64,000 nucleotides of DNA from Acanthaster planci (lineage: Eukaryota): positions 1,994,240-2,058,239 of the forward strand of contig NW_019091358.1 of assembly GCF_001949145.1 (NCBI RefSeq), in the 5' to 3' direction. Within the stretch, counting starts at the first letter, position 1; each line of letters starts with the position of its first letter. Shown one piece after another: positions 177 to 53,151 of the stretch. The position numbers and the translations under genes were made by a program. Under the pieces are notes generated by a model. It was not told the origin of the DNA and ran no database searches. It was given only the letters and a program-made list of their open reading frames with translations.

Positions 177-3100
177 ATGATTGCTGGCAGAGCCATTTTG
201 CTGTGTTTTGCCCTATGGATGACCTGTAAGTACAATGCCGTTTATTCTTCTGTTTTTGGCTGTTTGCCATTTTCTTTAATAAAATCAGGACAAGAATAGG
301 ATGCAATATGTCGAAGCACACAAGTGGAATATTTTTTATGTAAATACTTTATGGTAGGGCCTGCAACAACATACTTTTTCATGGATCGAACACCCTTTCC
401 TTTCCATCACAATTAACACGTGTTTAGGGTGAGTGTATTGCGTCAAGGATGGCACTTTCAAGATCTTTCAGTGTTTCAGAGTGCGATTAAGCATGTACAT
501 GGGCAAAATAAGTACCTGGGTAAAAAAAAAAACAAAAAAAAAACTCAATAATAGCCATACTTCAGCGTTTTGATACAGTCTGGGACAATCAAGGGATTGA
601 CACACGTTTTCGAAAATTCATTATTGGAGATAAAACATTTAATAATTAATAAGCTTAATGAAATGTATATAAGACGTTGATTACAACTCTATTTCACAGG
701 GTAAATCTCCCTTTTCACAGAGTAAATGGTTCTGAGTTTGATGCCAACATTTAGAGTGGTTAGTTTCTTCAGGGTTCATTTATGGTGAATTTCCAAGGTT
801 GCTTTCCGATTATGTTTATGAGGTCTTGATGCCACACCAGACGAAGCCCGGCTTTTTGCTGACCTGTTTCAGTGCCTCAATCCCGCGATAAGACCAGTGG
901 ACAATATCAGCGAACCAGTACTTGTGACAGTGGGAGCTGCCATCCAAATGATCGTGGAACTGGTGAGTTTTCGAAGTTATAGAAATTTTTATGTTAAGAA
1001 TCAACATTGCCTAAACCAATAAACCAAAACTTACAGGTTTACGCAGCAATAATTACTGCAATGGAAAGCTCACCAAACGAATGGGGGGGGGGTTACAAAC
1101 ACAAACAGAAGAAAACAACATTGAAAGTTAACAGCAGTGGTGCACCCCCTCCCCCGAGGTTTTCTGTTTTGTTTTTCAGTTTCTGAAAAGCGCAATTACA
1201 ATATACGATTCTATATTTTAAAGTACCAGCTCTGTTAAGTCCCAATTCCCTGTGACACAACGGAGGGGGGGGGGCGGATGAACACTGACTCTATTTGGAG
1301 TGGCAAATTCTAGACTGAGCTCCCCCCCATAAATCATGTGTTTGCCTCTGTTGACAGTAAAAACTGTGACACGATAGATACGAGTTGGGTGTACTCTGGC
1401 CACCCGCTGTTTCACAATATCAGAAAACAATTAGGATTGAGTGAAATCATTAATTCAGTCCATTAACGACTGCATTACCTTTTACAGGACGAACGGAACC
1501 AGCTAATTACCACGAGCTTGTGGATGCGGTTTGTAAGTATATGCTAATGGCTAATAACTTGTTTCTATCACCGCGTTTGATTATCACCCCCCCCCCCCGC
1601 TTGATACCGTGGTGTCACAGGTTCAGACGGGTACGTGCAATCTGTGGCGAAAAGTGAAAATGGTCCGTGCTGGAGGTATCAAACTTGGTCGAGAGGTTAA
1701 ATTTGCATCACGAATTTTAGGTGTCGAATCCACACACGTATTACTGACTTTTATTTCAACAAACTTGTGAGTCAAATGGACTCTACATGGAGTGATTTAT
1801 CATAACTGTTTAAAACAGTATCAGGTTTCTTTTGCATTTTCGAATCAACCACTTTTCTCGCATCGCACAAAGTGATACTTTCGCAAGTTGCCGGCTTGGC
1901 TGGTTGGTTACAGGGGCAGCCCTGACTGAGTGCTAATAGTCAAATGAATGTCAAATCGAACGACGCAAGTCGGGCTTGCGTGAGTAAGCGCAGAGGAAGT
2001 AATCGAATGCACTTAACAATAATTGATCCCATTAGGGTTTCCTAATTAAGGTATAGGCTGATATCGCACGCACATTCTGACTCTTATTTATTCAAGTTTG
2101 AAACGCATTTATGAATCATTTTTTTTTACATATGCTGTGATAAATCTTAAGTAAGTTCCACAAGGATGGATAAGCACCTATGATAATGGCAAATCACTGA
2201 GATAAAGTTTGGCTACGGCTTTCATTCTGTTGTGCACTGCTTCTAGCATACCAGATCACACGACGTTGCATTCAAAGATCTACTAAGTAGGGGTTACACA
2301 CATGAGTAAAATGTGGACGTACGGTACTTGTGTTACGCCAAATTTCCGACGCATGTAGAAGTTTAAAGATTACACTCAAGAAAAGTGTTTATTCAAAATA
2401 ATTTAAACAATAATATTAAATAAACAGAAATTAACCTTTGCATGTTGACGATGGACGTGGCAAAATTCCAACGTTTTAATAGAAGTTGCAACTGTACTGC
2501 CTAAAATAGGGTAAGACCCAATCAGGCAATGGAACTGTAAAAACCGTTCAAGCTACAGTTAATGTTTCAGGTAAATGAGGAAAAAACACTTTACAAAAGG
2601 TAAATTTTCCCTTACTTTTGCTCACTACTGTTTCTTTATAGTCGTGGGAAGATTCGCAGTTGCACTGGAATCCTGACGACTACGGTGGTGTGAAGAGTTT
2701 TACTGTCCCACTTCACAATATCTGGAAACCAGACATTGTCCTTTACAACAAGTGAGTTAGAATTCATCATTTTTAGCACAGCTTCCAGATGTTGTTAATC
2801 ACTGTACTTCAGCATAAGCGGGGAAAATAATACTTTTTGAGCGTAAAATAATATTTTTTTGCAAACTTGTAAAAATAGAATTGTATTCAAAACCAACAAA
2901 ACTTGAGGATGAAACTGGTGCATCGTTTATGGATAATCTGTAAAGGTACTTTCATCGCTATACCGTTCCCTTCTCTTGTCAATGCTTGAGCGTGGACTAT
3001 TTGCCTGGTACCCTTACACATCTGCATAACGCTTAGTCTGTATGGTTTTTTCCTTCCTCCCTTCCCCCCTTTCCTCTCCCCCTTCCCTCCTCTCAAGGTC

Positions 3101-5073
3101 CTATTATCCCCTCCCATACCCTCTCTGCACATTATGCCTCTCTTTATCGTTACCCCTGGTTCATTATTTTTACCTGATTTTTATGATTCCTACAGTTCTT
3201 GGAATGTAATTCCTGTTGTTTGTATGAAATGGCCGAATAGATAAATAAGTGAATAAAAACTGCATCCTTTCATCGAAGTGGTTTTCATGGATAATATTTA
3301 TATCAACTTTAATTGTTCATAGCGCCGATGCAGAATTCCAGGGTATGATCGACACTGGGCCAAGAATTAGTCACCGCGGCATGGTCTACTGGAATACCCC
3401 CGCACTCTTCAAAAGTTCTTGTCACCTCAACATGGCTTACTTCCCATTTGATGAACAGCGCTGCTTTCTCAAGTTTGGCTCCTGGAGCTACCACGGCTTT
3501 GAAATCGACCTCACCAACAGAAGCGTCAGTGGTGACATGTCCAACTTCATCGATAACGGCGAGTTCGACGTCATCGACATGCCAGTTTCTAGGAACTTGG
3601 TGTACTACAAATGCTGCCCGATGCCCTTCCCCGATATCACCTTTACACTTGTGCTTAAGCGAAGGCCCTATTTCTACCTCTTCAACCTCCTGCTGCCAAG
3701 TCTACTCGTTTGTTTTGTCACCGCCCTGAATTTCCTCCTGCCTGCTGACTCAGGGGAAAAAGTCAGCTTGGTTTTGACTGTTCTTTTGGCAATGACGGTA
3801 TTCTTACTGTTGGTTGCGGAAATCATACCGGCTTCTGATGCTACACCAGTTATTGGTAAGTTCTAAAGTGTGTTGGGCAGATAAGAACTACGTCACTGTG
3901 TATACAATGCAGCAAAAATAAAACCCCTCTGGAACTTCTAAACCAGTAATGCTCACCTGAAATATCGGTGTAAAACAACTTGCATTAAATGCATGGATCG
4001 CAGGGGTGAGTGCACAAATTAGATATGCCAAGGAAACAGACTTGATTTTTCCAATAAAAGAACTTATTTCTAAAAGTGTTGCAAAGAACTACAGGGAATG
4101 TTTAATTATTACACAAATGAACTACTTTTCATTTCGTTTCATTTTTCGTGATACGCTTACAAAGACATTCGAATCCACAAAAGACACAAAAAACATTAGA
4201 AATGAAATAAAGGATGCAATATTTAATGGGGCTCTCAAACTGGTTATATAAGAGATAAGGAAACAATTAAAATTGGAAACAAATATTTGTAAATGCAAAA
4301 ACATCAAGAAATGTTAACGTAACAGCATAGAAATACAACATTGATAAAATAATTTCAATTAATACAGCTATGAATAAAAAATATTTGAAACTAGATTGAA
4401 ATAAGAGTCTAAAATTACTTTAAGTGCACATATGAAAAAACCTGTTCAGTCAAGGCAGTGGAAAACCATGGGAAACAACATACACGTACATAGAACCTTA
4501 CAATAACAACAACAAAAATTATTGGGTGACCTTAAAGGATTTGTCCCTTTTGTTCTTTGTTCAGGTAAATACCTCATCTCCACTATCGTTATCGTCTCTC
4601 TGTCCGTTGTTATGACAGTCTTCGTGCTTCACCTTCACTATCGTCTCCCTGGGGCTAAGCCCGTGCCCCTTTGGCTCCGCAAGCTGGCTTTTGTTTACCT
4701 GGCTTCATTGCTTTGCGTCCAGGTGTCCTACAGCCATGGCAAGCCGGTTTTACCGTCACACTTCAACGGCAACCCCCACCCCCACCCTGTCATCACAACC
4801 CAGAACGGCAAGAGGAAGAAGAGGTCGTGGTGGATTTCCACAGTAGACGACAATCCCGTGTTCGCTGAGCTGGCACGAACGGTAGCGGCTATCAACGACA
4901 ACCTGCATACCATAGTAACACGAGGCAACGAGCAAGATGCGGACGACGACATTCTGACGCAGTGGAAGTATGTTGCGCTGGTCTTCGATCGTCTCTTCTT
5001 TTGTGTCTACATTGTACTCACGTCGATGACAGCCGTGATCATCCTTGGTCAATCTAAGTATTACTCCGAATAA
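177..5073 (+). CDS. CHRNA9-like: nAChR alpha subunit A (alpha9/alpha10-like), 6 coding exons, 461 aa
   Basis: Exons 177-225 (signal peptide [16 protein letters not shown]), 823-962, 1488-1532 ([15 protein letters not shown]), 2642-2751 ([10 protein letters not shown]), 3323-3855 and 4565-5073. All are GT-AG with matching phases and total 1386 nt. Motifs: Cys-loop [15 protein letters not shown], loop B WSY, loop C YYKCC (alpha type), M2 [23 protein letters not shown] (close to alpha9), M4 after [10 protein letters not shown]. Confidence 0.95.
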
Positions 5074-7745: not shown

Positions 7746-10700
7746 ATGTCAGGAATGCGCATTTCAATGTTGATGCTGTTTGTTGTCGGTAAGTAGCACA
7801 AAATAATTTTGTCGAGGCCATTACCTTATAACCTATTAATACGAATTCTGTAGAGTTCACGAAAACAACCATTATGGGAAGTGAGTATGTTTTACACAAT
7901 TGAAGTATAACACTAAACTTGTATAAGACTTCGCTTTGAAACCCATGCACCTCTCGATCTAGCAAGCAAACGAACGTGTGGTTGTGTCAAAGTTAAATCA
8001 GGGGCCTAATCGTTCTGCGTCACAGGAATGAAGAAAGCTCCCGACAATAAGAATTTGTATATATAAATCTCGACCAGTAACAAGACCACCATTCCAGTAC
8101 ATTCTATATTTTATATTTTACACTCTGGAAAAACTCAAAAGAGTATGTAGATTAATTTTATCAGCGTTTTAAATTTTCTAGAAAAGATTGACCTCAGTAT
8201 CTCTATGGGACAACTTGCTTCAAATGTCAATACATGTGACATATTCGGTCGGTTTCGAGTACTTTGTGTGTAAATCAGGGCCACTACGGTAAATTATTTT
8301 AAGTTGAATTTAGGTTTTACCCAGGCTTCAAATTTAATTGCAATTTAAAAATAGAATGTTAATTTAAAGTCAACCATCACACACATAGCCACAAATATTT
8401 GGCCAAGTCGTTATGTCGTTATGAACATTTAGGTTTTTCTCCAAAGTACGACCCTAACATGTGCAAATTTGGACAATAAATTATGTTTGGACTAATATTA
8501 ACATTTGGGAGAGTATAATGTAAACGTCGTATGACCACTTTGATTTGAGCTGCACCTCAATATACAACAGACAAAACTGGGTGTGCATACAAATATCCAA
8601 CATTAATTAACACCCACACGAGGTATTACTATCTAGTTAATATAGGGAATGGCACAGCCGGGCGCTCTGCTCACCAGCGTAGGACACCTGAAGAGCAACG
8701 CCTGATGAACGACCTGTTTAAGAATCACAGTTCCATCGTCTGGCCTGCGAAGAACCGAAACGACACCATTGTTCTCACTTGCGACACAGCCTTACAGACA
8801 ATCGTGGATTTTGTAGGTTGACTGCATTCCTCTCACTAGTTTTAACTTGAGGCATGGGAGAGATGGAAAAATAAAATTAAAGCAGACGAAAAAAATGCAA
8901 TGAACCATGAACTATATTGCAAATTGAAATCAACCAGAAACCATTAAACAAGCCAGAAAATTACGTGATTTAATGGTCTTGTATTTTTCAACTTGTATTA
9001 ATTAATTAAAACCTTAACATGCCCAACTCTTGTCTTTTCGGATGGAACACGAACTTGTAACACAATTACTTCGAAATTATTGTTTATTTTTTAGAACCAG
9101 AAGAAACAATCTCTACAGACGAGTATGTGGCTTCGATTTGTAAGTGTAAACATCTAAGGCGAACTGTTGTTTATATACTGTGATGTTTTTCTAATACTGT
9201 TTTGACAGTATAAAACGAGGATAATAAAACGTGAGAAAAGTGATACAGGAACCGATAACAGCTACCACAGATATGGCACATACCTATGAAAGTGGCTTGT
9301 CGACAACTTGCTGCTCCAAAGAAAGGCCTAAAACATACATAACTTTGTCTCAATTTATCAAAGATAATAGTTTTACTATTCTCATCACTTTTTCGTCACT
9401 TTCTATTTATGTTACTTTGTTTCAATTCTGTTTTAGGAATGGACAGATAACCATTTTCACTGGAACCCTGAAGACTACAGTGGAATAAACAATCTCGTCG
9501 TTCCCCTTGATTCTATTTGGAAGCCAGATGTTTATCTCGGTCAAAGGTAATTATCCGCGTAAGCCTAATAATTATAAGCCTCCTGCAAATTATATTAAAA
9601 AAATGGCGCTGTTTATACTTAGGGATGTAGGGCACCCAAGGCAGTGTGTCCGTTGACGGACCAGTAGCAGTCGGTGACAGTATGAAGACATCGTGCAAAA
9701 AAGTGAAAAGAAGATAAAGAATATGACTGATGGTGGGTTCGTACCCATAGTAATAATAATGATGATGATTAAGAGAGTGCACAGATCCACAAAGGTGCTT
9801 AAAGCGCTAGTACAATGAAATAAGTTTAATACCTCATTGAAGAGAAGAGTCTTCATAACCTTCTTAAACTGTACAAGAGGGGAAGATCACAAGTGTGCCA
9901 GTAAATTGTTCCAATACAAGGTGCAACACATGAAAAAGAGCGATCTCCCCATGAATGAAATGACCTGGGTTCTCTAAAAAGATTCATATTACTAGATTGA
10001 AGTCTACCCATCTTGAATGGAGACGAAGTTCTGAACTTGCAAATGTTAGACAAAACTGAACCTGGACAAAGTTTGCCTCGATTGCTACGTGACCTCCAAG
10101 TCAAATTTTGCATCTGATTTCCTGCTAATGTACGTACCGTTCCAGGGGCGGATCCAGGGATTTTCCAGGGGTTGTCAGGCCGGAGAATTTTAATGTCTCA
10201 TTTTCCGGACAAGTGCAAACCATGATCAAACATTAAACATGACTTACATTGTTTACAGTTATATTTGGTGCACTCTATTTTTTTGGTCATTAATTTTTTT
10301 CTCCCTTTATATACATTTATATATATTTTGTCTCAGACTACAGGGTTCGACATCCCCGGTTCTGCGCCTGCCTCGTTATTATGCAAAATACCAATTTATT
10401 TGTTAAAACATAATATTGAATTCTAGTGGCGAGCAACTTCATGGACACGAAGCTGATATAAATTTTAGTACTCTACAGTCTACAGCAGTGTGTATATGCA
10501 TCACACACTGATATAGCATTTTAACCGTTTTGATGGAGCTCGTGATACTTACAAACACAGTACACAAAATCTAGACGTAGAAGGGTGGTTGTTATTGCAC
10601 TGGAATAGCATCAAAAATGAAGCGAAATTCACATTACTTTGATGTTATAAAGAAAGTTTAAATGCTAGACGCCTCCTAGATTGCTGTTCTTCACCACATC

Positions 10701-12413
10701 TGGGTGATGGGGTCCCGAAAAACAGAGATGAGACAAAATAATCGGACACAATTACAACGTAGAATGTGCGGGCAAAGTGACAGAAATGTGTTCATTGCAA
10801 GTATGAGCTACATTTGCGTTTTACTGTTTCTTAACACTAGCCGTAAAAAAGGTAACAACGGCGTAGCTGACAGCCATCCACTGGTGACAAGCGGTGGCGT
10901 CGTCTACTGGAACACGCCAGCGAACCTACACACCCACTGCCGAATAGATGCGTCTTACTTCCCGTTTGACGAGCAACGCTGTCTGCTGCAGTTTAGCTCC
11001 TGGTCCTACAACGACGATGCCCTGCACGTTGAGGTGAAGAACCCATATGGAGATATATCGAAATATCAGGACAACGGGATATGGGAACTACTTGCGGTGT
11101 TGCAGAATGCAAGTGTAACATATTACAACTGTTGCCCAACGCCCTACAGTACCTTCACCATCACTATTATCTTGAGGCGTCGGCCACTGTTCTACATATC
11201 CAACTTACTCATACCCTGCCTTCTTATCGTGGCTACCACCTTGTGCAGCTTCTTGCTGGCTGTGGATTCAGGTGAGAAGACCAGCTTGGTAGTGACCAAT
11301 CTGCTGTCTCTTATTGTCTTCATGAATCATCTATCAAATGCAGTGCCCTCAACGGCGGACGGGATCCCGCTCATGGGTAAGACAAGTCATCTGTGTTCTA
11401 ATATTTCTATCGATTAGCCCAACAAAGTGCAGGGTGTGCAGTGCGAACGTATTGCTAATCCTAGGAAGACCATTGTCTATGATTCGATCATTCGCCTAGG
11501 ACTGAAAAAGGGGAAAGGTCAACGCGACTACGGTTTTAGGAATTGGAGTAAGAATTGTGGAGCAATGTGTCTTTGAAAACCACAAAGTCATATAATATAG
11601 ATTGAATAGTCACTGCATCACTATCCTGGCACAGCGGGGATGGGTAGCACCGACCAAACATATACTGCACAGGCCCGACTGCAATTTAATTCAGTACAGG
11701 TCCGGGAACTGTCACTTCGTCAACACAAACTCGTGAATAATTCTAAGACCCACGAGGCACGTATGTAGTTCATTACAAGGCTGTCTTGGTGAGATTCTAC
11801 GTTGTTTGAAAACACACACGCATGCCAAAAACGTGTAGGAAAGACTCGTTTCTTGAACTTTAACCTTGATTGTTTTCTTGGTACTTTTTATTTTTATGTG
11901 TATCCAGTTAAGTACATCGCAGTTACAATAGCCATAGTGTCCATATCCATGGTTGTTACCATATGGGTTCTACGAATTCACTACCAGCCAAGTCTGGTAA
12001 CGCCGGCGCCAGGGTGGCTGAAGAGGCTTACATTCACTTATATGGCTAAGCTCCTCCTCGTATGGGCACCACATTACAAAGAGGTGCCAGCAGCAGATGT
12101 TGCCAGAGGTGTACCTATCGTTCTGTTACCCTCTTACAGTCAACAGGGAGAATCCTCCTCTCCAGGGTCGCGCGTGGAAGATGCGGTTGCTGTTGTAAGC
12201 CAAAGGCTCAAGTGTCTCACCTCCCGTTGCAAGAGGAAGGACGCAGCCAAGGAGATCCTGTCGGAGTGGAAGCATGTTGCCAGGATCATCGACCGCATGC
12301 TCTTCCTGTTGTTTCTGGTGGTAACTATCGCCATGACCTCTCCGATTTTGCTACAGTCTAAGCCGCTCTCCACAGCAAAGCAAATTGCGATGTGGCAAGG
12401 GACCAGGCAGTGA
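7746..12413 (+). CDS. divergent nAChR alpha-type subunit B, 6 coding exons, 468 aa
   Basis: Exons 7746-7788 (MSGMRISMLMLFVV), 8646-8812, 9095-9139 (45 nt), 9437-9546 (110 nt), 10841-11376 and 11908-12413. GT-AG sites, matching phases, 1407 nt open. Cys-loop [15 protein letters not shown], loop C YYNCC, GEK before M2, WKHVARIIDR before M4. Confidence 0.93.
9750..10010 (-). mobile_element. 5'-truncated LINE (L2/CR1-like) 3' end in an intron of gene B
   Basis: The minus strand encodes degenerate SWGDRSFSCVAP...KTLLF, typical of a LINE ORF2 C-terminus, followed by an (ATC)n/(ATT)n tail. Confidence 0.6.
10142..10370. repeat. MITE-like interspersed repeat (CAGGGGCGGATCCAGG type)
   Basis: Begins ccaggggcggatccaggg and ends ccggttctgcgcctg, a degenerate inverted terminus. 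Related termini occur at ~57793-58019 and ~62381-62397. Confidence 0.45.
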
Positions 12414-13814: not shown

Positions 13815-16800
13815 CTAGTCATAATTAAGGGTCATTTTAAGAATAATAATCAGTGACGTCATTACGATGGCCAAAGCAAAGAGCAGCATCAGCAATCTAT
13901 CCAGGATCACGCACATGTCAATCCACTGTTGCTGGACCAAGGAAATCTTCTCCTTTCGCTTGCATCTGTTCACAAGCTTGTCGATATATCGGCCGATCCG
14001 CTGGACTGTCGCGCCGAGGCTGACTTCCGTGGCGTCCGTGCCGTACTCGGCGGCACCTTCGGCCATGAAGCCCCCCGGCCCGCCTGTGTCCTTGGCCCCG
14101 TAGCTCCCCGGCTCCAATTGCAGCTGCTGCAGGAGGCTCACCCCGAGGGCCTGGCTGTTCAGTAGGGAGTTTTGTTGGTCGTACTCGAAGAGGTCGTCAC
14201 AGCGATGGGGGGCAGTCGCCTTCTCTCCCTCTAACTCTTCGCCGTCAGCACTGGTGTAGTCGTGGAAGGCATGGCGTCGTCCCTTAATTCGCAGGAAGTA
14301 GGCCAGGCGATCAAGAATGAGCTTACGAGCCCAACGAGGCGGGGGACGGCTGGGTATGTGGTGGTGCAGTCGAAGAATGACGACAGATCCGGCAGTTTCC
14401 AGGGACATGACAACGATGATAGTTGCCAGCAGTTGACCTTTAGTTTGGAATTTATGACAAATGGCGTGAAGGTCAAAAAATCTTTTAGAATTTCTTTTCT
14501 AAGTTCATGTTTGATCATCCCCTCCGAAAAGTTTCGTATCAAAAGAAAAATTAACAATTTTAGACAAGCAAAGGATCTCCTTTTCGGTGTAGTGTTTGCA
14601 GATTCGCCTAGTATTCCATGCATGCTCAAAGAGTGTAAACTTCCATTTTAGTTATGTGTAATGAACTAATGTAAAATGAAGCACTGGTACTTGATGAATG
14701 CATACTTGTTACTCTTCAGGCGAACAAAAAGTAATTTTGAAATGTGCTTCGCTAAGGTGGTTTTGTTATCATCCCAACAGTCTAGTAATAACGGCATTGA
14801 CCATGTGTTTCACTCACCGAGCAGAGACACAGTGTCCGAAGTTGGCGGCAACAGCTGGGCCCCAAGCAGCAAGAAGAAGACCAGCGACAGCAAGACGGTG
14901 ATGTTCAGGCCTATCTTCTCCCCAGACTCCGCCGGGAGGTAGAAGCTCAGGAAAGAGATCAGAGACATGAAGATGGACGGGAAGAGCAGACTGAAGACGT
15001 AGAACAGGGCCTTTCTGCGGAGCTTCAGCGTGAACGTGACATCGGAGAAGGGGTCTGGGCAGCAGCCGTACTCGACCAGGTGTGCGACAACAGGCATGTC
15101 CAGCAGCTCCCACTGGCCATTTGTCGTCATCTGCGACCAGTCGCCTTTTTCTGTAGTGAGCAGGGAAAACAAGCACACTTGAAAGGAACATTGACCACAA
15201 TTTCCACACCTCAGATAAAGACCTTCCTAGTAAACATTCTGAATAAATTTGCACGTTTGACCTTAAGTACTCCAATTTTGATAACTGCTATGCTTCTAGA
15301 TTTTGATGAGCACAGATAAGGAAACACTCTTTCAATTTTTTTTGAATTGAATTTCAAATGATAGGGTCAAAGGTTAAGGTAATGTGTCAAAGGGTATGGT
15401 GGCCCTCTTTTGACTAAACTTAATTTTGACAACATTGCTGATTTGAACAATAAATCGTCACTGTTTCCACGAGTATCATTTTTTTCGATTGTGATTACGT
15501 TCATGAAGTAAGGGACCAAAATCTCGATAAATGCATATTGCTTTTTAGAGTGTGACTGCCCCTCGTACACATATAAAACGTAAAACGACTGGAAAGGCCG
15601 AAAAGTAGGTCGAGTATCATTTTCGTTTACACGAAGAGCCACACATCCTTGCTACATTTACAGTGGCGCGTGCGTAAACACAATGTGCTCCTTCCCTATG
15701 AAAAATGCATTGCACAGAAGGGCCAACAAGTAGGAAAACGTCGATTTTCGATTTCAAGAACAGACGCACATGTTTACTTATTTATTTCGGCTGGCCACAA
15801 TGTTCATTTTACTCACTTGGTTCAGGCAAAAGTTTACTTTACAAAAACACATTTAAGGGTTTTACTGCATAAATTTGTTCCATATTGGTATTTTTTAAGT
15901 TTTGAACTAAGAAAAGCTTCAAGGCGATTTGTCTAAAACCAGTTTTTCTTCAAAATCTACATGTGTGGCTCTTCGAAAACACTGTGACAACTTGTAATTA
16001 TTTTGATAACAAATTAATGCAGGAAGTTTTGACGTACTTTTACTTCAAAGGTGATGTTTTAAACTAAATTCGTCACTTTTCTTGATCTCTTCCCTGACCA
16101 CGCATAACGGCAGATCGTGCCAAAAATGGTAGTGTTCATTGCTCTTCAATATCTAGGAGCACAGCAGTTGTTTATCAAAGTCAGAAGACCCAAGGTCAAA
16201 AGGTGCATGCGTTGGTCTTATATGGAATGATCCAGCAAATAGACAAAACAAAAGTCGCCAGACAGGATAATAAAAATCCTTTCATTAAGTACCGCTAGTT
16301 TTGAACTGATTAACCGATAGAAAGCTCTTAATATCATTTAAATGTATACACCACTGAGATACTTAATCGGCGTTTGTCTTTGATTGGTTAATTGATGTCC
16401 CATTACTAATAAAGCTGGGCTTACAGCTTCACCTTCTTGTAAATAACTTGAGGGTAATCGTTTGAATGAATCATCCATGGGCCCTCTGTGTCCAATATCG
16501 GGAGGAATCTCACTGAAAATGGAAGTTTCCCATTGAATTGAATAACTCAGAATTAATATGTCAATTCTTGATCAGCACGCAAAAAGTAGAGAGTTTAGGA
16601 GCTCCTGACAAAGAGAGGTGTAGTGTTTAGTTGACTAAATGAAACCCCTTGTTAGCGACAAAAATCAGGGCTTCACTAACCATGTTTGGTATTTAGGCTC
16701 ATTGGAAATGATTAATTTACCGTTACAGTGAAAAAATATTAACATTAATATAAAAAGTTGGAATAAAGGGAAAATTCCTAAGTTGATAAAATAACTCGAA

Positions 16801-19800
16801 AGATCAAATATAACTCTTGAAAAGTATTTACCGGCGACGGTCCTCATCACCACCTCGTTGCCTTTGTACGCCCAAGGCCCAAACTTCATTGGACAAGTCT
16901 GCTTGTCGAAGGGGAAATATGTTATATCGAGCGAGCAGGAGCTCTTGAAGATGGCAGGTGCGGCCCAGAAGACCCCGCCTTCGCTGGAGACGACCGCATT
17001 GGTCATCATGATGCCGGTGCCTGGCTCCTTGTCCACATCAGCGCTGTAGGGTAAAACAAATTCCGTGGAAAGATTACACCGACCAAGTCCCGGATATCGC
17101 ATATATTACCTAAAAGTTTCGTAAATGATCAGAAACTAGATTTGCATAGTTGACAACTTTCGATTTAAGTCGAAAACAAAATGCAATACAATAATTTGGG
17201 ACCTACTTGTCATATTATCAGTGGGTCCTAAAATATCATATCCATTATCAGGAGTAAAGTCTAGCTGAACACTGTCTGTTCACTCGCAAATTCACCCGAA
17301 CACAGGCTTTACATAGTAAGTGTGCTTAATGAAAATTAATTAGTCTTCTTGTGATTAACACACAACGTGTCCTACATGGGAAATGCCTAGTGGATTCAAG
17401 TACCAACCTGTCATACAAAACAGTGTCTGGAATCCATATTTGCCGAGTGGGTATGTTTATTGCCGTGATGTTATCGTAGTCTAGGGGGTCCCACACAAGA
17501 AAGTCATCCCTCCATCTCTGTGCGATTAAATTACATGGGTTATCAAATCAAAATTCCCGTTCCCCTTGCTGTAAACTCCTCCCATTCCACATTCACTCAA
17601 AATTGTCTCTATCGTTCTTGAGGAGTGTTGCCCTATCTTATCATACATGCTTACATCAACAAATTAAAACGGAAACGAGACTTTTGATACTCAACCATTT
17701 TCCCTGCCTCTTTATAAAGTATGCCCTTTTTAAGGCGATAAGAGCATATCAAACAATGTAAATCTAAGCTGAAATGGAGGTCAACCAGCAATTTTCGTGG
17801 ATAACCTGTTTTGATATTATTCACAGAACGCATAATTTTAATTAATGGACTTTGGGTTCAGTTAAGGAATAGCAAGTGAAAAATGTGAACTTACAGGCTC
17901 CCAACAGCAGAGCAAAAATCAATTAAAAAACTCTCAGGAAGGCAAGGGTTTTAAACTGCTCCCCCCACGCATACATTAAATCGTATTTTGCAGTTTTCCA
18001 TCATCGCGTTATTTCGTTTCAATTCGAGATTCATTTTTTTTACTCAGGTCTAAGCCAATTAGGACTAGCAAGAGGTAGTGCAACCCTCCCTCGTCCAAAG
18101 ATAGCCAAGGAAATTCCATATTGATAATTTGTTCTTTGTAACTTCAGTACATTAATTTGTTCTCAAATGAAATTGATGTTTAATTCTTGTTAAATGCATG
18201 CAACAAAATATCCAAATAATAACACTCAACATGCATTGGGGTACTGCTTTTTAAGAGCGGCCATTGAACCTATGATTTTTTTAATTTTTTTTTTGTAGTT
18301 GCTAAGGGGGCCTTTTTCACATTGACTGGAAATATGCAATTTTTCTCTGTATAAACGTATTATGCGGTGAAGCTATCAATACAGTTTTGTTTCTCCACCG
18401 TCTGAACAAAGTATTGAAAGGCAGCCTTAATCATGAAAGCAGCTCACATGTCATAAATAGCAAGAACACCTGGTGTCTATGTTAATACTCGTGTGTTGTC
18501 TGACCTGATGACTGCAAAAGACATAACGTAGGTCCTGAACGTACGTCTTGATTTGTGGCACATGTAAAAATATATAATCTCATATACCAAGCCAGCTTTG
18601 AAAAATCCGACATCGGGTCTCTCTCTACCTTTCCTCGAGAAGTTGAAAAAATGAAACCTTTTGGGGGGTTCGAAATTTCAAGGTAAAGTATCAGTTCATT
18701 TTGTTACAAGAAGAAAAAAAGACATCTCCATGCTAGACTTTTAATGGCATATAGTCAAAATATCCCTACCTGCTCCAACCAAAATGCTGTAGTCAGGATT
18801 TGGTTTCTCTCGTCCTGTCCAGAGAGGTGCATAACCCAGTTCACAATCAAAACAGGGTGAGGTAAATGGGGACGGGGGTGAAGAAAATAAACAACAATCC
18901 GTGCTATAAACCATGCCATATATCGAGAACGGAGGCTCACCTGTCATATGAACATTAATGCTGTGCTGTGCACCTAAGGAGATACAGTAATACAAGCGTA
19001 ATGGGAGAGAGCGCGTGAGAGTGTTGGCTTTGTTTTAAAGGACAACGACACTTTGCCATTTTCGCAGGCTCCTTATTATCTCGCCATTCAAAGAACCCCA
19101 GTTTTTTTATTAAGTGTATAAAGCATTGAAAGCTATTATAAAAAACCAAAAAACAAACAAACCAAAAAACAATTTTTTACCGATGGATACCCCCACGGTA
19201 ATGGGAAAAATTTAACCCAAGAGAAATTTTCATCACCCTGACGCTACTCTTTAGCACATCTAAAACCATGCAGATGGCTCCCTATTACTATCATGATTCC
19301 TCCCCGAAATTCCCTACATGTTGTCGTGCTGTATGTGCAGAGGTCAGAAAGAGTGCTGTGATCGGACAGGCATGCACATGCAAGTCTGTTCAAGTCACTA
19401 TGCAAAACGTATACAGCCGACGAAAAGAGGATACCTGCTCCAGCCTGACCACGGTGGTAAGGACCTGGTTCACTTCATCCTTGGGTGAGACAGAAGAAAG
19501 AGGTCAACGAGGAATAGAGGGAGAAAGTGTGTGAAAATCATAAAAGAGGGACTGGATGGTCACAGAAAGAGAGTGGCGCACCTTGGATTTGTCTGGGACT
19601 GGGATGCACGGCTCTAAGACAGCTAGTAGTTTAATTAAGACGTGGGTGTATACTGATTTTTTACAGAAAGTGTATACATTTTTTTAAAAAGACAACCATC
19701 AGAGCTCAAGCCCCCAGCCCCCCCCCCCAAGTGCGCCACTGCAGAAAGACAGAACACGAGGGTGCAGACTGTACTTGAGTTTGAAGAAAGAACATCATAT

Positions 19801-22705
19801 AGAAATAAAGAATATGCAAAACGGAAATCAAATGCAGGCGTTGGAAATGTTTACATCGGAGGGGTGTGAAAACTGATTCAAGGCAAATAAAAACGTACTT
19901 ATTTTCCTTACAAATAATTAAAATATGAAATGTGAAATCGTGCTGAAGTTTCCTCTTTTTGTCTCTTTGACCGATATCCTCTGAAAACAAACAGCAACCA
20001 ACAAGGGTATGAAATGTCAAACAAAACACTGCAATATATGCAATATGCAATTATGTACCGGTAGCCTCGGCGGTCAGTTCTGAAATCTCTGGAAACGAGC
20101 AGTGTGGAACGTGTGCGTAATACACAGTACAATTAAAGCCGCGAGTCACAACAGAAAAATTAAACACGTTTTAGGTTTTGAAAATCATGCCAATTTAAGC
20201 CCCATCGGCATGGACATATCGTAAGCGTCCACAGTAATTGTTCTCTTTTCCAAAAGAGCTTTCCAGCACACTGGCAAATTAATCACATTGCGTCGTGTAA
20301 ACTTTTTGCTCAAACACCTTCCAAAAACATACAAATAGTAATACAAATGTATCACTGGAACCGCTTTAGAATCGCACAGAACATTAATGCATACTGCGTA
20401 TCTAGACAAATTTGAACGATGTATGGTTTATATTAAGAATCTCGCTCAGCAATCTTCACACGGTGGAGTGTGTGCTGTGCCTCTTATCTAGAACACTGAA
20501 CTCTATATTATGTGGGTTTGAAAATAAACAAATATTTCAAAAATAAAACAATTACTGTATGTATTCGTCTTTGGGCAAGGCACTTTGCCGTAAATTATCT
20601 CTTTACCACACTAGGGGTAGAATGGATACTTGCAATATAGCAGAAATAGCTTAAGGTCTCGAATTCGTATCCGGAAATATCCAAGGAAACAGTGCATGAC
20701 AATGTTCAATAAAATGGCTGAAGTTGTATGTTTTGTTATGGATCTGGTTCATCATGACGTCGAGACTGTAATACATATACGCTAAAAATGTTTGCTGCAT
20801 TTATGAACGATAAAAGTAGGGCCTATTACTATAAATATAAAGGCGGTATCTTTGTGACCTCAGGATCGAAGAGGCACTATTATTGCATGTCCAACAACTC
20901 CTTAAACGTTTACACAAGGTTATGTTTGTAGGTATTACTTTTGTTTGATCCATTTGTGTTATTTGTAATTTCAAATTATCGTTCCTTGCCACTGCGAACA
21001 GGAAAATACACTTTTTGAAAACTGCTGTCAATTTATCTGCATAAAATTGGCCCGGGTCCAAAAACCTAATCAATCTATCGCTGTTTCCGACTTAGTAATG
21101 CCCCTGCAACAGCCATATGGACATTCTGCACGTTGAAGTTTTGTTTGTCTCAGATTACTTTTACGCGTCCCGGTTCTATTTTCCATTGGACAATATTTTT
21201 CACACGCTGCGCTGGCATGATTCTACCGCGATAGGCCAATTCGCTCAGGAGATTAAAACTGTGCAAACAGGCAGCATTAAAAATGCAAATTAAATCAGCA
21301 ATAATAAACATTTAACTTACTATTTTGAGAATCCGTGAGAGCTTCATGTGATAGAACACCTCCAAAACTTTAGTTTCATTGAGTACTGGGCGCACATAAC
21401 GGCTGTACTCCCGTAGAAGGTCGGACACCAGTCTTTCCTGGTGCCCCTCAGAATACAGACTGTTGCCACACACTACAAAGGGAAGATGAACAATAAGCCT
21501 CATCCACGGGGAAATCCTTTTCATTTTGGTCTCCAAATATAGCGTATTTTATACAAACTGTAAAATTGGGTGGTGCCAGACTATTTTGGGTTGAAAGCAT
21601 CCATAACCCCTTTTTAAAATATGGCTTCAAATATGTATATTTAATTTATCACAGTTTTTTCAATTATTCTACGGGCAAACTGGCATGGATTTGTAGAAAG
21701 TGCTAACGGATGACCATTTTGTCCAATATTTGAACCTTCACCTCTGCGCTGAATTGTCTTTTTTCATTGCCAGTCGTATGCTGTAGGTCAGATACAATTG
21801 GGCATTTAATCTATATTCTGTAGCTAAAAGGAGATTCTAGCCAAAACTGTTGCCATGTCGTGATGTTGATTGGTTGGAGACCAACATGTGGTTGTATGTC
21901 AATAAAAACAATTATTCAGGCAATTTCAGTTAGACGATTCCGAGTGAAAGGCTCCCAATTTGATGGATTCCCTGTACCCTGCAGTTCTGCCACTGCTGCA
22001 ATTAAGGCTGGTGTCAAACAACCTAACAGAGATATTGACAAGTCCTTTCCACACCCTTGGAACTATTGGCCGAGCAGTGACACGGTAAACAGGACGAGCA
22101 GGTTCGAGGTTGCAATCCTGGCCAAAATTGTTTTGACATGACCATAAGAATACCATACCTCCCAAATTAACCCCCCCCGCCCCAGTCTATAACTGTATAT
22201 TCAGTGTGGACAGGGACTAGGGTGGGAGAATTACTGTGAATGGAAAAAGGGATCGCAGGATAGTATTCACGTCTTGGGATCACCATCACTTCTATTAGGC
22301 ATGTTAAGATTAGTATCTATAGGACTACATCATAGATTATCAATAATTGTTTGCATTTGTATCCGTTTTGCCGAATTCATATGCACGTTACATTAAAAAA
22401 ATGCAAGTGTGTAAGTGATCCAAGCACTAAACGATTTTATGTTCCCGTGTTATATGTCAATCTCTTATTTTACAATAGCTAGTGCAACCGAGTAAGCTTT
22501 CACGACTATACTGCATGACACTGATTATCAAGCCCAAAGTACTGGCATAAGGTTTTAAAAATACTTGTGATCACAACGTTATGAAAAGACAATCCAACAC
22601 ACGAGTTACAAGAATGTACTCACCTGGTTCAAGAAAGATTACGCAGATCAGGGGCAAAGTAGCTGTCATAAGAAAACGCCATCCACAGTTGATGGTCCGC
22701 GCCAT
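13815..22705 (-). CDS. nAChR alpha subunit C, 7 coding exons per isoform with a duplicated exon 3, 518 aa
   Basis: Exons 22705-22624 ([27 protein letters not shown]), 21472-21321, [19479-19435 or 18814-18770], 17517-17408 ([10 protein letters not shown]), 17043-16832 ([20 protein letters not shown]), 15150-14818 (EYGCC, GEK-M2) and 14437-13815. GT-AG sites, matching phases, 1557 nt with one exon 3. Confidence 0.93.
18770..18814 (-). CDS. gene C alternative exon 3b ([15 protein letters not shown])
   Basis: Exactly 45 nt, phase 0-0. Acceptor ...ctctctggacag and donor CAG|gtaggg. Canonical loop D Trp. Confidence 0.9.
19435..19479 (-). CDS. gene C alternative exon 3a ([15 protein letters not shown])
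   Basis: Exactly 45 nt, phase 0-0. Long polypyrimidine tract ending ...ttctgtctcacccaag and donor CAG|gtatcc. 10/15 aa identical to exon 3b. Confidence 0.85.
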
Positions 22706-30090: not shown

Positions 30091-32850
30091 CCAGTTCCCT
30101 TGTAGTCATAAGCTCCGAACGGTCCACCTGGGACTATACTGGAAATTTAAAAGAGTGGCGTAGTAACTTAAATGTATTTGGGGGTGTGGGGCTTGTGCTC
30201 GATAGAAGTTTTAAAAACTGTGGGGCTACTATTGTCTATTGATGCTTGAGATAACTTTTCCAAAGTCTGACGGTTTCTGGTAAAAAAGGCTGGATGTGTG
30301 ATGATGGACTTCAAACTGTCTGTTGTGGCTTCTTCGGGACCAGGTCAGCTTGGGTTAGCGTCAATGCCAATCTCCTGATTGAATATTTTGTGAACGATTG
30401 TATGTCTCTACATCTGGCGTATAGTCTCAAGAGAATCCCATTTGAGGTTGGTTAACATATTCGATACACTGGGTTTAGGTTGAAAATCACCGCACACGAA
30501 GCTGGCAGCTCGTCTCTGCACCGACTAAAGGATGTCTCTCTTTTTCTTGGTGCCTGGGTTCCATGCAGCAGAGGCGTATTCAAGATGTGGTTGAACAGCT
30601 GTCTGGTATACGTCTTCTTGATCTGTTCTGGAAAAATTGGCTGAAATTTCTTTGAAGTTCAGCATTTTGGGGGGTTTGGTTGAGGCATATTGTGTTTGCT
30701 TGTTCCATTTCAGTTCATTCTGCATTATTACACCAAAGGTAGTTGCCACGAGTGACTTCCTCCAGGGTTTCTCCAAGCATTTTGTAGCTTGCTATTGATT
30801 AGACCACTTTACAAGACTATCAAGATCAGAACGTAGCAATCTGTTATCTACCGGTGAACTTATGGTCTTATATAAGATGCAGTCGTCTGCAAAGAGTCTC
30901 GTACTTTATTTGACAGTTTGTGCAATGTTATTAATGATGAGTATAAAAAGATTGGGACCTAGCACCGTACCCTGGAGTACACTACTCAGCACTGGTTTCC
31001 AGGGCGAAGCTTTACCGTTTACAATGAGTCTTTGCATACAATTTGTGAGAAATGACTCGATCTATTTCAGTGGTTTATTTCTAATACTATAAAATGTAGC
31101 TTCTGGAGAAGGCGCTGGTGTGGTGCAACATCAAATGCCTTACCGAAGTCGAGTATTGCAGTATCTGTAGTCAGTTGTTTGTCATGGTTAGTAGTTAAGT
31201 CGTGCTGGGAAGTGATGTGCAGAGTGACACATGACCGGGATCTTCTAAAGGCATGCTGGGCGTCCGGGAGTTTACCATGGGCTGAAAGGAACTTCATAAT
31301 CTGGCTGTCAATTATGTGCTCCATCAATTTGCAACAGATGCAGGTTAACCTTATCGGCCGGTAATTTACTAGGTCAGATTTGGGTCCTTTTTTTAAAGAT
31401 GGGCGAGACATTTGCTCTTCTCCAGTCATCTGGAAGAATACTCTGATCTGAACTCTGCTGAAAGATGAACTGTAACGCAGGGACCAGCTCTATCTGCTGA
31501 GGCAATCTTCAAAGCAGCATTTTGCTCTTAATCTGGTCCAGTAGCTTTGTTAACTTGGATAGTAGAGAGCAGTTTCTCCACACCATCTGCAGTGATTTCT
31601 ATATCAGGTCGATCAGGAAAAGGGCTGGGTGGAAGCGTAGGTAGAGTTGGGTCTTTTTTAGAGAAGACACTCTGGAATAGGTCAGCCAATTTCTCAGCTT
31701 TTAACTGATCATTAACAAGGGTTTGGTCTCCTATCTTAAGAGTCTGGATACCAACGTTGTCTTTCTTCTGGGATCTGATGTAACTCCAGAACTTTATACT
31801 GTCGAAAGATGGTCGGACACATAATTTTTGTGCGCATTATGGATTTTTTTTTATCATCGTCACTGCGTATGTTCTTGAAATCATCCCACTGTTGTTTGTA
31901 GTTAATAGTTTTAACAGCTTTCAGATAATAACGCTCTTTTCTTCTGCAAATTCTCTTATGCCTCCGTGCAAACCATGGAGGACGTTGTTTATCTATAGTT
32001 TGTTTACTAGGAATATGTTTCTGGATAAGATTTGTGATGGCACTTTTAAAGGTATTTCAGTTTTCATTAACAGTCTTCTCTTCTGGACTGGTTCCAAGAA
32101 ACGCATCAGTAGGCTTCTGGACATTTAAATTGAAATTTTGCTCATCTCATCCAACTTGTTCCAAAGAAGCACAGTTCTTGGTGGTTTCACAGGCACTGGA
32201 GTCTGAGTTTGCATGTCAATCATAACCGTACAATAATCAGCAATAGGGGCCAGTAGATAGACATTTTCCACTGTTGAAGGTCTTGTTGTGAACCAGAGAT
32301 CCAGGATATCCATTTGCATCCTTGAGCGTTGGAAAGTCACCATTTCCTCCAGAGTATGGTTATCAGCAACACAGGCGATCTTTTCTTGAAGGGGACTGCA
32401 GGGATTGGCTGCACCATCAGAATTCTAAACTAGGTTTGGAATATCGAAATCCCCGCCAACTATGATGTGGGGGGATTTAGACTCTTGCTTGATCTTACTA
32501 AGACTGGCATCCAAAAACTCGAGGCCTTCTTTCTCCAGTACTAGGCGATCTGTAATAAATTAATACAGACACTTTCGGACCCCAGTTAGAGTTGACACCA
32601 TATCTGTTCACTATCACTTAGTGAGAGATCCAGCCTTTCCATACAGAGGATGGTATCCTTAATGGCAATGAAGATGCCACCACCTCTGTTATATTCCATT
32701 CCTAGTCAACTAATACTGGCTAGGAAAAAATTTCGGATGAGTAGACATCTCCATCTAACCACGATTCTGAACTGAGAATTACATCTGGGGATTTGTTATA
32801 AACGAATTGAATGTTATGGACGAGTTGATTGCACTTCTACGAATATTCCT
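30091..32850 (-). mobile_element. degenerate CR1-type LINE (APE endonuclease plus reverse transcriptase)
   Basis: NYRPIRLTCICCKLMEHII, QHAFRRSRSC, ILDFGKAFD..PHQRLLQKL, QGTVLGP, LFADDCILY and PHLEYASAAWNP. Endonuclease motifs near 32100-32800 (IIVGGDF, LDLWFT). Many stops and frameshifts. Confidence 0.88.
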
Positions 32851-48404: not shown

Positions 48405-49249
48405 AAGGGGGGCTAGGCCTAACGTTGCTTCTAGACCCCCACGTTATAGGTCTAGGGCCCAGCTAGGAAAATATCATGTCATAGAGCCTAGAGGGGGAAT
48501 CTACATGATGTGATACATGTAGGCTACATATGTAGTAATAGTTATAATTACCAAAGATGGAGACATTCCCATAGGAGCGTGCACAACCCTTTTCAAACTT
48601 TACCGTCCCATAATTCAATATTCCCTGATCCGATCTTAACCAAACTTTGCACGTTTTCCTTTCAGACCCTAATCATCTCTCAAAATGTGGACGGTAAACA
48701 TTTTCCTCCTTTTCGTAGTTGGAGCATTAGGGAGACACTGAAATGTCCAAAATTGAAATGTCTCCCTAATGACCGATGTCTCCCCAATGTTGAAAAATTT
48801 ACCACAAAATGTCTCCCGAGTGACTTATTTGGAAATATATGTACCCTAACACTGGTAACAGTTTGTAGTAGGCCTATTACGTAGTAGCAACTTAGCCTCA
48901 GGCCTACATAGGCCTACGTGGGAGAGGACGTCGGACCCAAACCATACACAGTTCTGAGTTCTGTAGGGCCTACATAAATTTGTTTCAACTGCTGCCGAAA
49001 AAAAATTCCTGTATTTGTTATCATTTTCGATGTCGTTCAAATAATGTAACTTGCCAACGTCATTCTCAAGATATATTTTGTGTTATGCACTGCGCCACCA
49101 AGTACCTGAAGCGGGGAAAGAGAGTCTTCAACTGTGTGTGACGTTAACTCAATCGCATGCATCGCAAGTTTCTGTCTACATTATGTTATACCCAGCAAGA
49201 AATGAGACTGAGGGGTACCCCCCAACATGTCCAATCCCTATACACATTC

Positions 49250-49413
49250 TTGTATTTATGGGTTCTTTCTACCCAGTAAATGGGACAAAAGGAACTGACT
49301 CACCAAACGTTGGTTTAGCTTTTCATGGGGGCTGCCATCTTGTTTTTCTTTATTCACCCTGCAGACACTGTTTTAATATAAAACGTGTAGTTGGTGCCTG
49401 GGTACACATCACC
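49250..49413 (-). repeat. 3' LTR of the Gypsy element
   Basis: Direct repeat of 52988-53151. Confidence 0.9.
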
Positions 49414-49674
49414 CATCCTCTAAAAACTGTGAATAAATAAAACTTGTTAAGCACAGAAACAACAATCACATAGTAAACTGTTCTTTCAAAATGAGACATT
49501 AAGGTTTAGGCTGAGAAATGTTGGAGTTAAAGACTAATTGAATTCTCCAAAACTTTGTGTCTTACTCAATGCCCTAGGCTGTTGAAATGTTAGAATGAAA
49601 CAAAAAACATGTATCACTTCTCCAAGTCCTATTCTGTTAAATCCAAAATTAAGGTTTATTTTGTTCTAAAACTA

Positions 49675-49936
49675 NNNNNNNNNNNNNNNNNNNNNNNNNN
49701 NNNNNNNNNNNNNNNNNNNNNNNNNNNNNNNNNNNNNNNNNNNNNNNNNNNNNNNNNNNNNNNNNNNNNNNNNNNNNNNNNNNNNNNNNNNNNNNNNNNN
49801 NNNNNNNNNNNNNNNNNNNNNNNNNNNNNNNNNNNNNNNNNNNNNNNNNNNNNNNNNNNNNNNNNNNNNNNNNNNNNNNNNNNNNNNNNNNNNNNNNNNN
49901 NNNNNNNNNNNNNNNNNNNNNNNNNNNNNNNNNNNN
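49675..49936. other. assembly gap (N run)
   Basis: Run of N. Confidence 1.
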
Positions 49937-52048: not shown

Positions 52049-52192
52049 NNNNNNNNNNNNNNNNNNNNNNNNNNNNNNNNNNNNNNNNNNNNNNNNNNNN
52101 NNNNNNNNNNNNNNNNNNNNNNNNNNNNNNNNNNNNNNNNNNNNNNNNNNNNNNNNNNNNNNNNNNNNNNNNNNNNNNNNNNNNNNNNNNNN
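52049..52192. other. assembly gap (N run)
   Basis: Run of N. Confidence 1.
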
Positions 52193-52987: not shown

Positions 52988-53151
52988 TTGTATTTATGGG
53001 TTCTTTCTACCCAGTAAATGTGACAAAAGGAACGGACTCACCAAACGTTGGTTTAGTTTTTCATGGGGGCTGCCATCTTCTTTTTCTTTATTCACCCTGC
53101 AGCCACTGTTTTAATATAAAACGTGTAGTTGGTGCCTGGGTACACACCGCA
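52988..53151 (-). repeat. 5' LTR of the Gypsy element
   Basis: Direct repeat of 49250-49413, next to the PBS. Confidence 0.9.

What the first reader, a model, noticed from the sequence alone, without database searches (positions are those of the whole stretch)
18770..19479. Tandem duplicated loop-D exon in a nAChR gene: a candidate Trp55/Arg55 splice switch
Seen: gene C has two 45-nt phase-0 exons 620 nt apart, 3a [15 protein letters not shown] (19479-19435) and 3b [15 protein letters not shown] (18814-18770). Both have good splice sites. Of 10 identical residues, 7 use different synonymous codons, so both copies appear to be under protein-level selection. Known: this exon encodes loop 2 (D44/E45/position 46, gating coupling) and loop D, whose Trp55 forms the complementary face of the agonist site. 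Muscle alpha1, which offers no agonist-binding complementary face, reads DEVNQIVTTNVRLKQ (V46, R55), much like 3a; alpha9/10 read DERNQ...W, like 3b. Insect alpha6 has mutually exclusive exon 3 variants, but I know of no W/R loop-D switch in an alpha9-like gene. Inference: one gene could make a W55 subunit able to supply a complementary face (homomer-competent) or an R55 principal-face-only subunit, tuning pentamer composition, agonist-site number and toxin sensitivity.
Basis: partly seen in the sequence, partly recalled or inferred. Interest (0 to 1): 0.88.

Follow-up and report, generated by a model that had tools for sequence, protein, structure and literature searches.

The report
Starfish receptor exon drops binding tryptophan
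A starfish acetylcholine-receptor gene holds two intact copies of one small exon, a pair also annotated in a brittle star, and the second copy lacks a tryptophan of the transmitter-binding pocket, so splicing likely lets one gene make either a normal or a weak-binding subunit.

Summary
The gene is an Acanthaster planci nicotinic alpha subunit. Exons 3a and 3b are intact 45-nt phase-0 copies of the loop 2/loop D exon, 620 nt apart, saturated at synonymous sites (pS 0.99, pN 0.18). RefSeq already lists three isoforms (3a, 3b, 3a+3b), and the brittle star Amphiura ortholog has the same three, its 3a 13/15 identical. An unnamed contig holds an intact 3a with 15 nucleotide but only 2 residue changes. 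So 3a is old and under protein-level selection.

Corrections: brittle-star 3a has Gln55, so the conserved switch is Trp/non-Trp, not Trp/Arg. Val46 is shared with alpha3/alpha6, not muscle-specific. The exons are probably not strictly exclusive. The gene forms its own echinoderm-hemichordate clade; alpha9 orthology and homomer competence are unshown. Low-depth contigs, presumed RNA, show only 3b joints; no read counts for 3a were obtained.

Duplicated exon 3 is known in insect alpha6, where the one pair seen here keeps Trp55 in both copies. Ten literature searches found no Trp55-removing splice choice. The scan noted twin nAChR exons before in other genomes, but other exons. Verdict: new variant of a known kind; function untested.

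The parts
22624..22705 (-). Gene C coding exon 1 (start codon, signal-peptide region), 82 nt
   Evidence: matches RefSeq protein P0003
21321..21472 (-). Exon 2, 152 nt, ends in phase 0 at the end of strand beta1
   Evidence: donor used in a contig of run X1
19435..19479 (-). Exon 3a, 45 nt, loop 2 and beta2/loop D; Val46, Val49, Val53, Arg55
   Evidence: in RefSeq isoforms X1 and X3; conserved in Amphiura and L001; not covered by the four contig runs laid
19480..19553 (-). Long pyrimidine-rich, AG-free tract upstream of 3a, with a branch-point-like motif at about -29
   Evidence: a similar tract precedes 3a in L001 (pyrimidine fraction 0.78)
18815..19434 (-). 620-nt intron between 3a and 3b; too long for steric exclusion (inference)
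18770..18814 (-). Exon 3b, 45 nt, canonical loop D; Arg46, Ala53, Trp55
   Evidence: joints exon 2-3b (X1) and 3b-exon 4 (X1, X2); RefSeq X1 and X2
17408..17517 (-). Exon 4, 110 nt (loop A region)
16832..17043 (-). Exon 5, 212 nt (loop E, Cys-loop, loop B Trp)
14818..15150 (-). Exon 6, 333 nt (loop C with vicinal cysteines, M1, M2 with Phe13')
13818..14437 (-). Exon 7 coding part, 620 nt (M3, intracellular loop, M4; stop follows)

Best explanation
The gene carries an old tandem duplicate of the loop 2/loop D exon, present in a starfish and annotated in a brittle star, and alternative splicing likely makes a main 3b subunit with Trp55 and a minor 3a subunit without it, whose complementary binding face is predicted to bind acetylcholine poorly. 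Shown: two intact exons, selection on both, Trp replaced by Arg or Gln, 3b joints in contigs of runs presumed to be RNA, and three annotated isoforms in two classes. Inferred: 3a is really spliced in (from RefSeq models, which by my recall of NCBI's pipeline need transcript support for alternative variants) and is the minor form. Inferred from mutagenesis of vertebrate receptors: the 3a subunit keeps a principal face (loop A Tyr, loop B Trp, loop C Tyr-x-Cys-Cys), so it would still assemble and gate, but interfaces where it gives the minus face would have lower affinity or efficacy. Val46 in place of Arg46 would also shift gating coupling. The cell would thus set the number and strength of agonist sites per pentamer by splicing, probably in a heteromer.
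For: 3a is 13/15 identical between Acanthaster and Amphiura (0.87), against 0.61-0.75 for the other extracellular exons and 14/15 for 3b. Against L001, 15 nt differ but 2 residues; pS about 1.0, pN 0.13; 0 of 50,000 random trials keep 13 residues. Splice signals are intact in L001. Both species have 3a-only, 3b-only and 3a+3b models. Trp55 in 118 of 126 homologs; the only Arg and Gln there are the two 3a isoforms. The 3a isoform is predicted to fold normally, with beta1 64-79 and beta2 84-96 at pLDDT about 84-93. Mutational precedent: alpha9 W55T raises EC50 about 60-fold and double W55T alpha9alpha10 gives no current (PMC5325082 passages); alpha7 W55G lowers ACh sensitivity 6.5-fold and slows decay (PMC4560414 passages); polar residues at muscle alphaV46 lower the gating constant (PMC2217457 passages). 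3a-specific Val46, Val49 and Val53 are shared by both species.
Against: No direct read evidence for 3a was obtained. In the four contig runs laid, the only joints at this place are exon 2-3b (X1) and 3b-exon 4 (X1, X2), at depth 3-13, and one X1 contig joins across 3a. Two Logan-assembled full-length ortholog proteins (P0006, P0020) carry 3b only. The closer asteroid Patiria has one annotated model, 3b; its genome could not be checked. Position 55 differs between the two 3a copies (Arg, Gln), and the crinoid ortholog model has Ser there, so the site may be merely relaxed. L001 encodes the same peptide as Amphiura 3a and may not be a third lineage. In ticks the 3a+3b form gives no current (PMC13578988), so co-inclusion could be the relevant product.
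Confidence: 0.58

Rival explanations
1. 3a works mainly as an in-frame dampener: it is spliced in together with 3b, adding a 15-residue loop that gives a non-conducting or poorly assembling subunit.
For: 3a+3b models exist in both species (P0016, P0022). Both exons are 45 nt, so co-inclusion keeps the frame, and the 620-nt intron gives no steric block. In Ixodes alpha6 only 3b and 3a+3b were cloned, and 3a+3b gave no current (PMC13578988, section 3.1 and passages). Bombyx makes the double form in a stage-dependent way (PMC1919356 passages).
Against: A looped-out spacer would not need 13/15 residues conserved with saturated synonymous sites. 3a-only models exist in both species. My 3a+3b model shows 3a as a low-confidence loop, but 54 of 55 alignment rows sat under 3b, so it is no support.
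Confidence: 0.18
2. 3a is a real alternative exon, but its selected role lies in loop 2 and beta2 packing (Val46, Val49, Val53: gating coupling or partner choice). Trp55 was lost only because this isoform sits where its minus face binds no agonist, as in muscle alpha1.
For: The residues fixed in both 3a copies are the three valines, whereas 54 and 55 vary. In muscle alpha1, R55A and R55W barely change gating (L2 ratio 1.58 and 0.71; PMC2217457 Table VII), while V46 changes do. The crinoid model has Ser55. The clade-wide Phe13' (21 of 21) hints at a heteromeric, possibly accessory role (inference).
Against: Both 3a copies lack Trp while 3b keeps it in all other ortholog models that have the exon except the crinoid one, so the minus face matters for 3b and its loss in 3a still changes what the subunit can offer.
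Confidence: 0.18
3. 3a is a decaying or rarely used duplicate with no function; the RefSeq isoforms reflect splicing noise.
For: No 3a joint among the contigs of four runs; Patiria has a single 3b model; the 3a donor is among the weaker ones, 6/9.
Against: Synonymous saturation with near-identical protein across two echinoderm classes and intact splice signals.
Confidence: 0.05

Closest known systems
Insect/arthropod nAChR alpha6 exons 3a/3b (PMC1919356, PMC5111602, PMC2064938, PMC13578988; passages read)
   Same: Same 45-nt exon (loop 2, loop D) duplicated in tandem; either-or use with some co-inclusion and skipping; similar spacing (899-nt intron in Tuta).
   Different: In the one insect pair seen here (mosquito model P0266) both copies keep Trp55; here one copy loses it. 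Gene C lies outside the alpha7 plus heteromeric clade (SH-aLRT 97.5), and both copies share the ending typical of gene C orthologs, so the duplication is likely independent.
Insect Rdl and GluCl exon 3a/3b/3c (PMC2064938 passages; PMC13512814 and PMC13762713 search listing only)
   Same: Tandem alternatives of the exon next to loop D in Cys-loop receptors; Rdl splicing alters agonist affinity as cited in PMC2064938.
   Different: Anion channels gated by GABA or glutamate; not nicotinic alpha subunits.
Vertebrate muscle alpha1 (Arg55) and mammalian alpha10 (weak complementary face)
   Same: Alpha subunits with an intact principal face and a minus face that contributes little; alpha1 has Val46 and Arg55 (PMC2217457); alpha10 asymmetry in PMC5325082 and PMC8634148 (passages).
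   Different: There the state is fixed in a separate gene; here it would be chosen by splicing. Alpha10 keeps Trp55. Gene C is only 38% identical to alpha1 over 321 aa, so the resemblance is convergent.
RefSeq annotation of this locus (XP_022096675.1, XP_022096682.1, XP_022096691.1) and of Amphiura (XP_072037861-3.1)
   Same: All three isoforms are already predicted.
   Different: Automatic models named 'alpha-10-like'; I found no paper that describes or tests them.

Membership tests
Cys-loop receptor, nicotinic alpha subunit | Neur_chan_LBD plus Neur_chan_memb domains, 13-residue Cys-loop | tested here: met
   Pfam scores above cut-off for all three isoforms; Cys166-Cys180; Foldseek top hits are nAChRs
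Cys-loop receptor, nicotinic alpha subunit | Vicinal cysteines in loop C and principal-face aromatics | tested here: met
   Loop A Tyr, loop B Trp, loop C Tyr-x-Cys-Cys align with alpha7; the second loop C Tyr is Phe
Cys-loop receptor, nicotinic alpha subunit | Cation-type Glu at M2 -1'; gating by acetylcholine | tested here: inconclusive
   Glu at -1' present; ligand and conductance cannot be tested with these tools
Vertebrate alpha9/alpha10 group | Orthology to CHRNA9/CHRNA10 in a tree | tested here: inconclusive
   Tree of 67 of 126 sequences held no vertebrate alpha9/10; gene C forms its own clade (SH-aLRT 100, stem 0.79) outside alpha7 plus heteromeric subunits. Exon 5 scores beta3 > alpha2 > alpha9 > alpha7 in the PDB
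Vertebrate alpha9/alpha10 group | Forms functional homomers or alpha9alpha10-type heteromers | not testable with these tools
   Needs expression; clade-wide Phe at M2 13' against Val in 99 of the 105 other homologs leaves it open
Tandem duplicated alternative exon | Same length, phase and homology; both copies intact and under selection | tested here: met
Tandem duplicated alternative exon | Each copy is used alone in transcripts | tested here: inconclusive
   3b alone seen in a contig of X1; 3a alone only as RefSeq models in two species
Strictly mutually exclusive exons | Never included together; an exclusion mechanism (short intron, frame clash, RNA pairing) | tested here: not met
   3a+3b models in both species; 620-nt intron, both frame-neutral; best RNA pairing over the 3a donor reached by 13 of 200 shuffles, one of five tests
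Insect alpha6 exon 3a/3b system (homology) | Host gene in the alpha7 group and shared origin of the duplicate | tested here: not met
   Gene C is excluded from the alpha7 plus heteromeric clade; no insect alpha6 was in the tree, and its place in the alpha7 group rests on its annotation and recall

The most novel reading that the evidence does not exclude
Since the ancestor of sea stars and brittle stars, one nicotinic alpha gene has used a regulated splice switch to turn its complementary agonist face on (Trp55) or off (Arg/Gln55). It thereby does by splicing what vertebrates did with separate genes such as muscle alpha1: make a principal-face-only subunit that sets agonist-site number and subunit order in the pentamer.
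Probability: 0.35. Interest if true: 0.75.

Novelty: new variant of a known kind. Interest (0 to 1): 0.56.

Why it matters
If 3a is a regulated isoform, it is a natural two-state experiment on one of the most conserved agonist-binding residues of nicotinic receptors, in an otherwise identical subunit. It would show that the division of labour between principal and complementary faces can be set by splicing, add an independent deuterostome case to the repeated duplication of this exon in Cys-loop genes, and give a handle on echinoderm cholinergic signalling, whose subunit-level pharmacology the review I checked treats only briefly (PMC10603993 passages). The isoforms are already in RefSeq and the design is known from insects, so it refines rather than overturns.

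Tried and rejected
No whole genome is held for this window, so paralogs outside it and introns of relatives could not be read. The run search listed no holder on record as RNA; that is no evidence either way. Four of the seven presumed-RNA contig holders were laid: bin 19198-19508 had no cover, which contigs cannot turn into absence. No raw-read junction counts were obtained. An intronic contig at 18874-19077 in X2 shows that unspliced RNA or DNA is present.

RNA pairing as exclusion mechanism: 22 inverted repeats in 4 kb, one overlapping the 3a donor, but duplex energies were not beyond shuffles (13, 84, 84, 54 and 127 of 200); rejected. AlphaFold model of 3a+3b: discounted because of alignment bias. 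No complex prediction was run; both isoforms would likely pass by likeness to solved pentamers. A region search with the 3a isoform found no further 3a-type representative (5 hits of 16 candidates); clustering hides isoforms. No Asterias ortholog appeared. The Asterozoa node of the tree is unsupported (25.4), so the tree does not date the duplication. 'Special kinship of 3a to muscle alpha1' rejected.

Literature: ten searches found no description of this gene's isoforms or of a Trp55-removing alternative exon. The library lacks most subscription papers, and I opened no supplements, where echinoderm receptor catalogues could list these isoforms.

Full report
Observation. Ten of 15 residues match and seven of those use different codons. 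Nei-Gojobori gives pS 0.99 and pN 0.18, and 10 of 50,000 random trials with 16 substitutions keep ten residues. A scan of all 342 open AG-45-GT/GC candidates in the window lifts only these two and the single exon 3 of neighbours A and B above background; no further copy lies in the adjacent introns.

The gene. Seven coding exons give a 518-aa protein with either copy, 533 aa with both and 503 with neither, all without stops. Exon 6 matches at 100% a RefSeq protein of Acanthaster planci named alpha-10-like. Its cluster has three members: X1 with both exons, X2 with 3b, X3 with 3a. The protein has the Cys-loop, loop A Tyr, loop B Trp, loop C Tyr-x-Cys-Cys and Glu at M2 -1'. A tree of 67 of the 126 full-length sequences held (410 columns, LG+G4, fast search; isoform duplicates, many redundant vertebrate entries and the 827-aa crinoid model left out) puts it in one clade of echinoderm and hemichordate orthologs (SH-aLRT 100, stem 0.79), outside alpha7 plus the heteromeric subunits (97.5). 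No vertebrate alpha9/10 was in the set, and exon 5 scores beta3 and alpha2 above alpha9 in the PDB, so 'alpha9-like' is a label, not a result.

Conservation of 3a. The ortholog of the brittle star Amphiura filiformis has the same three models: 3b (X1), 3a (X2), both (X3). Its 3a is 13/15 identical to the starfish 3a, more conserved than the other extracellular exons (0.61-0.75) and close to 3b (14/15). A degenerate motif scan of metagenome contigs gave one hit, L001, an AT-rich 1,156-nt contig with an intact 3a exon behind a long pyrimidine tract and a GTAT donor like the starfish one. It differs from the starfish 3a at 15 of 45 nt but 2 of 15 residues (pS about 1.0, pN 0.13; 0 of 50,000 trials). 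Its peptide equals Amphiura 3a, so I count it as DNA-level support, not as a third lineage. Sea stars and brittle stars split in the early Palaeozoic (recalled). Protein models of Patiria (1), sea urchins (8), sea cucumber (2 full-length), crinoid (1) and hemichordates (4) show no 3a, but their genomes were not searched.

What the switch changes. The twelfth residue aligns with alpha7 Trp55 and muscle alpha1 Arg55. It is Trp in 118 of 126 aligned homologs; the rest are 4 Phe (one a misaligned truncated model), 2 gaps and the two 3a isoforms. Among 146 further cluster representatives, 29 gave no scored segment; of 121 segments 114 have Trp and 2 have Arg, one a mammalian muscle alpha1, one a rotifer protein. 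Starfish 3a has Arg, brittle-star 3a Gln, so the conserved feature is loss of Trp together with Val46, Val49 and Val53. Val46 is common (50 of 126) and is shared by alpha3 and alpha6, which keep Trp55, so the likeness to muscle alpha1 is one convergent residue in one species. The crinoid model, outside the 126 by length, has Ser at 55, which shows some tolerance in this clade. AlphaFold folds the 3a isoform normally, and it matches solved nAChRs.

Use in RNA. Seven contig runs presumed to be RNA hold part of the gene; four were laid. One contig of X1 runs exon 2-3b-exon 4, skipping 3a, and one of X2 joins 3b to exon 4; depths are 3-13 and 3a is uncovered, which contigs cannot turn into absence. 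Two Logan-assembled ortholog proteins carry 3b. Junction counts from raw reads were not obtained, so use of 3a rests on the RefSeq models in two species (NCBI's pipeline, as I recall, makes alternative variants only from transcript evidence; I could not see that evidence) and on selection. Each of the three models needs a joint of its own, which argues for leaky rather than strict exclusion. Nothing enforces exclusion by frame or intron size, and RNA pairing was not beyond shuffles.

Mechanism. Most likely 3b gives the main subunit with both faces intact, and 3a a minor subunit with an intact plus face and a weakened minus face. Precedent sets the range: W55T in rat alpha9 shifts EC50 from 18 to 1022 uM and double mutants give no current, while W55T in rat alpha10 does little (PMC5325082, passages); alpha7 W55G stays a functional homomer, 6.5-fold less sensitive and slower to decay (PMC4560414, passages); in muscle alpha1 R55A/W barely alter gating but V46 substitutions do (PMC2217457, passages and tables). 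So 'principal-face-only' is one possible outcome, 'low-affinity, slow' another. Whether 3b forms homomers is unknown; all 21 clade sequences have Phe at M2 13' where 99 of 105 others have Val, and five Phe in the pore would be unusual, so a heteromer is at least as likely (inference). Rivals are a co-inclusion dampener, as the silent 3a+3b form of tick alpha6 suggests (PMC13578988, section 3.1 and passages), and a loop 2/assembly role with position 55 merely relaxed.

Known systems and novelty. Tandem 3a/3b of this same exon is established for insect alpha6, with co-inclusion in Bombyx and skipping in Tuta (PMC1919356, PMC5111602, PMC2064938; passages), and for Rdl and GluCl. The one insect pair I could inspect keeps Trp55 in both copies (P0266). 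Ten searches showed no paper on this gene or on an alternative exon that removes Trp55; PMC6896357 has no mention of echinoderms or alternative splicing, and PMC8634148, PMC10603993 and PMC12843386 (passages) do not cover it. Four earlier scan notes report twin exons elsewhere in nAChR genes of other genomes, none for this exon, and no look-alike window exists; I did not test them.

Verdict. Real, old and selected; a likely independent deuterostome case of a known design with one new twist, removal of the loop D tryptophan. New variant of a known kind, interest 0.56.

Noticed in passing
window 14818-15150 (-), M2 of gene C: All 21 sequences of the gene C clade have Phe at pore-lining 13' (Val in 99 of 105 others); the clade mostly also has Gly2', Asn4' and Gln20'. 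This suggests an unusual gate or an obligate heteromeric role.
   Followed up: partly
window about 800-5070 (+) and 8550-12410 (+): Two further nicotinic alpha-type genes (A, B) lie tail-to-tail with gene C; each has vicinal cysteines, a single exon 3 with Trp55 (1488-1532, 9095-9139) and Val13'. B has an atypical loop 2 start and a polar outer M2.
   Followed up: partly
proteins P0009, P0041, P0013: Hemichordate ortholog models of Ptychodera (X2) and Glandiceps lack exon 3 altogether, and the crinoid model has Ser at position 55 with Trp at 54; exon 3 may be labile across this clade, or these are annotation errors.
   Followed up: no
window about 49000-53200 (-): Broken LTR-retrotransposon-like element: gag/pol-like reading frames in pieces, an RT RNase H Pfam hit, two N gaps, and similar stretches near 49285 and 53023 that may be terminal repeats.
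   Followed up: no
window 31067-31489 (-): Fragment of a reverse transcriptase (Pfam RVT_1), probably a LINE remnant.
   Followed up: no
protein P0254: A rotifer (Seison) alpha-type subunit with vicinal cysteines also has Arg at position 55: another apparent convergent loss of Trp55.
   Followed up: no
window 19419-19434 and 19948-19963: A 16-nt inverted repeat overlaps the 3a donor; 13 of 200 shuffles pair as well, so it is treated as chance.
   Followed up: yes
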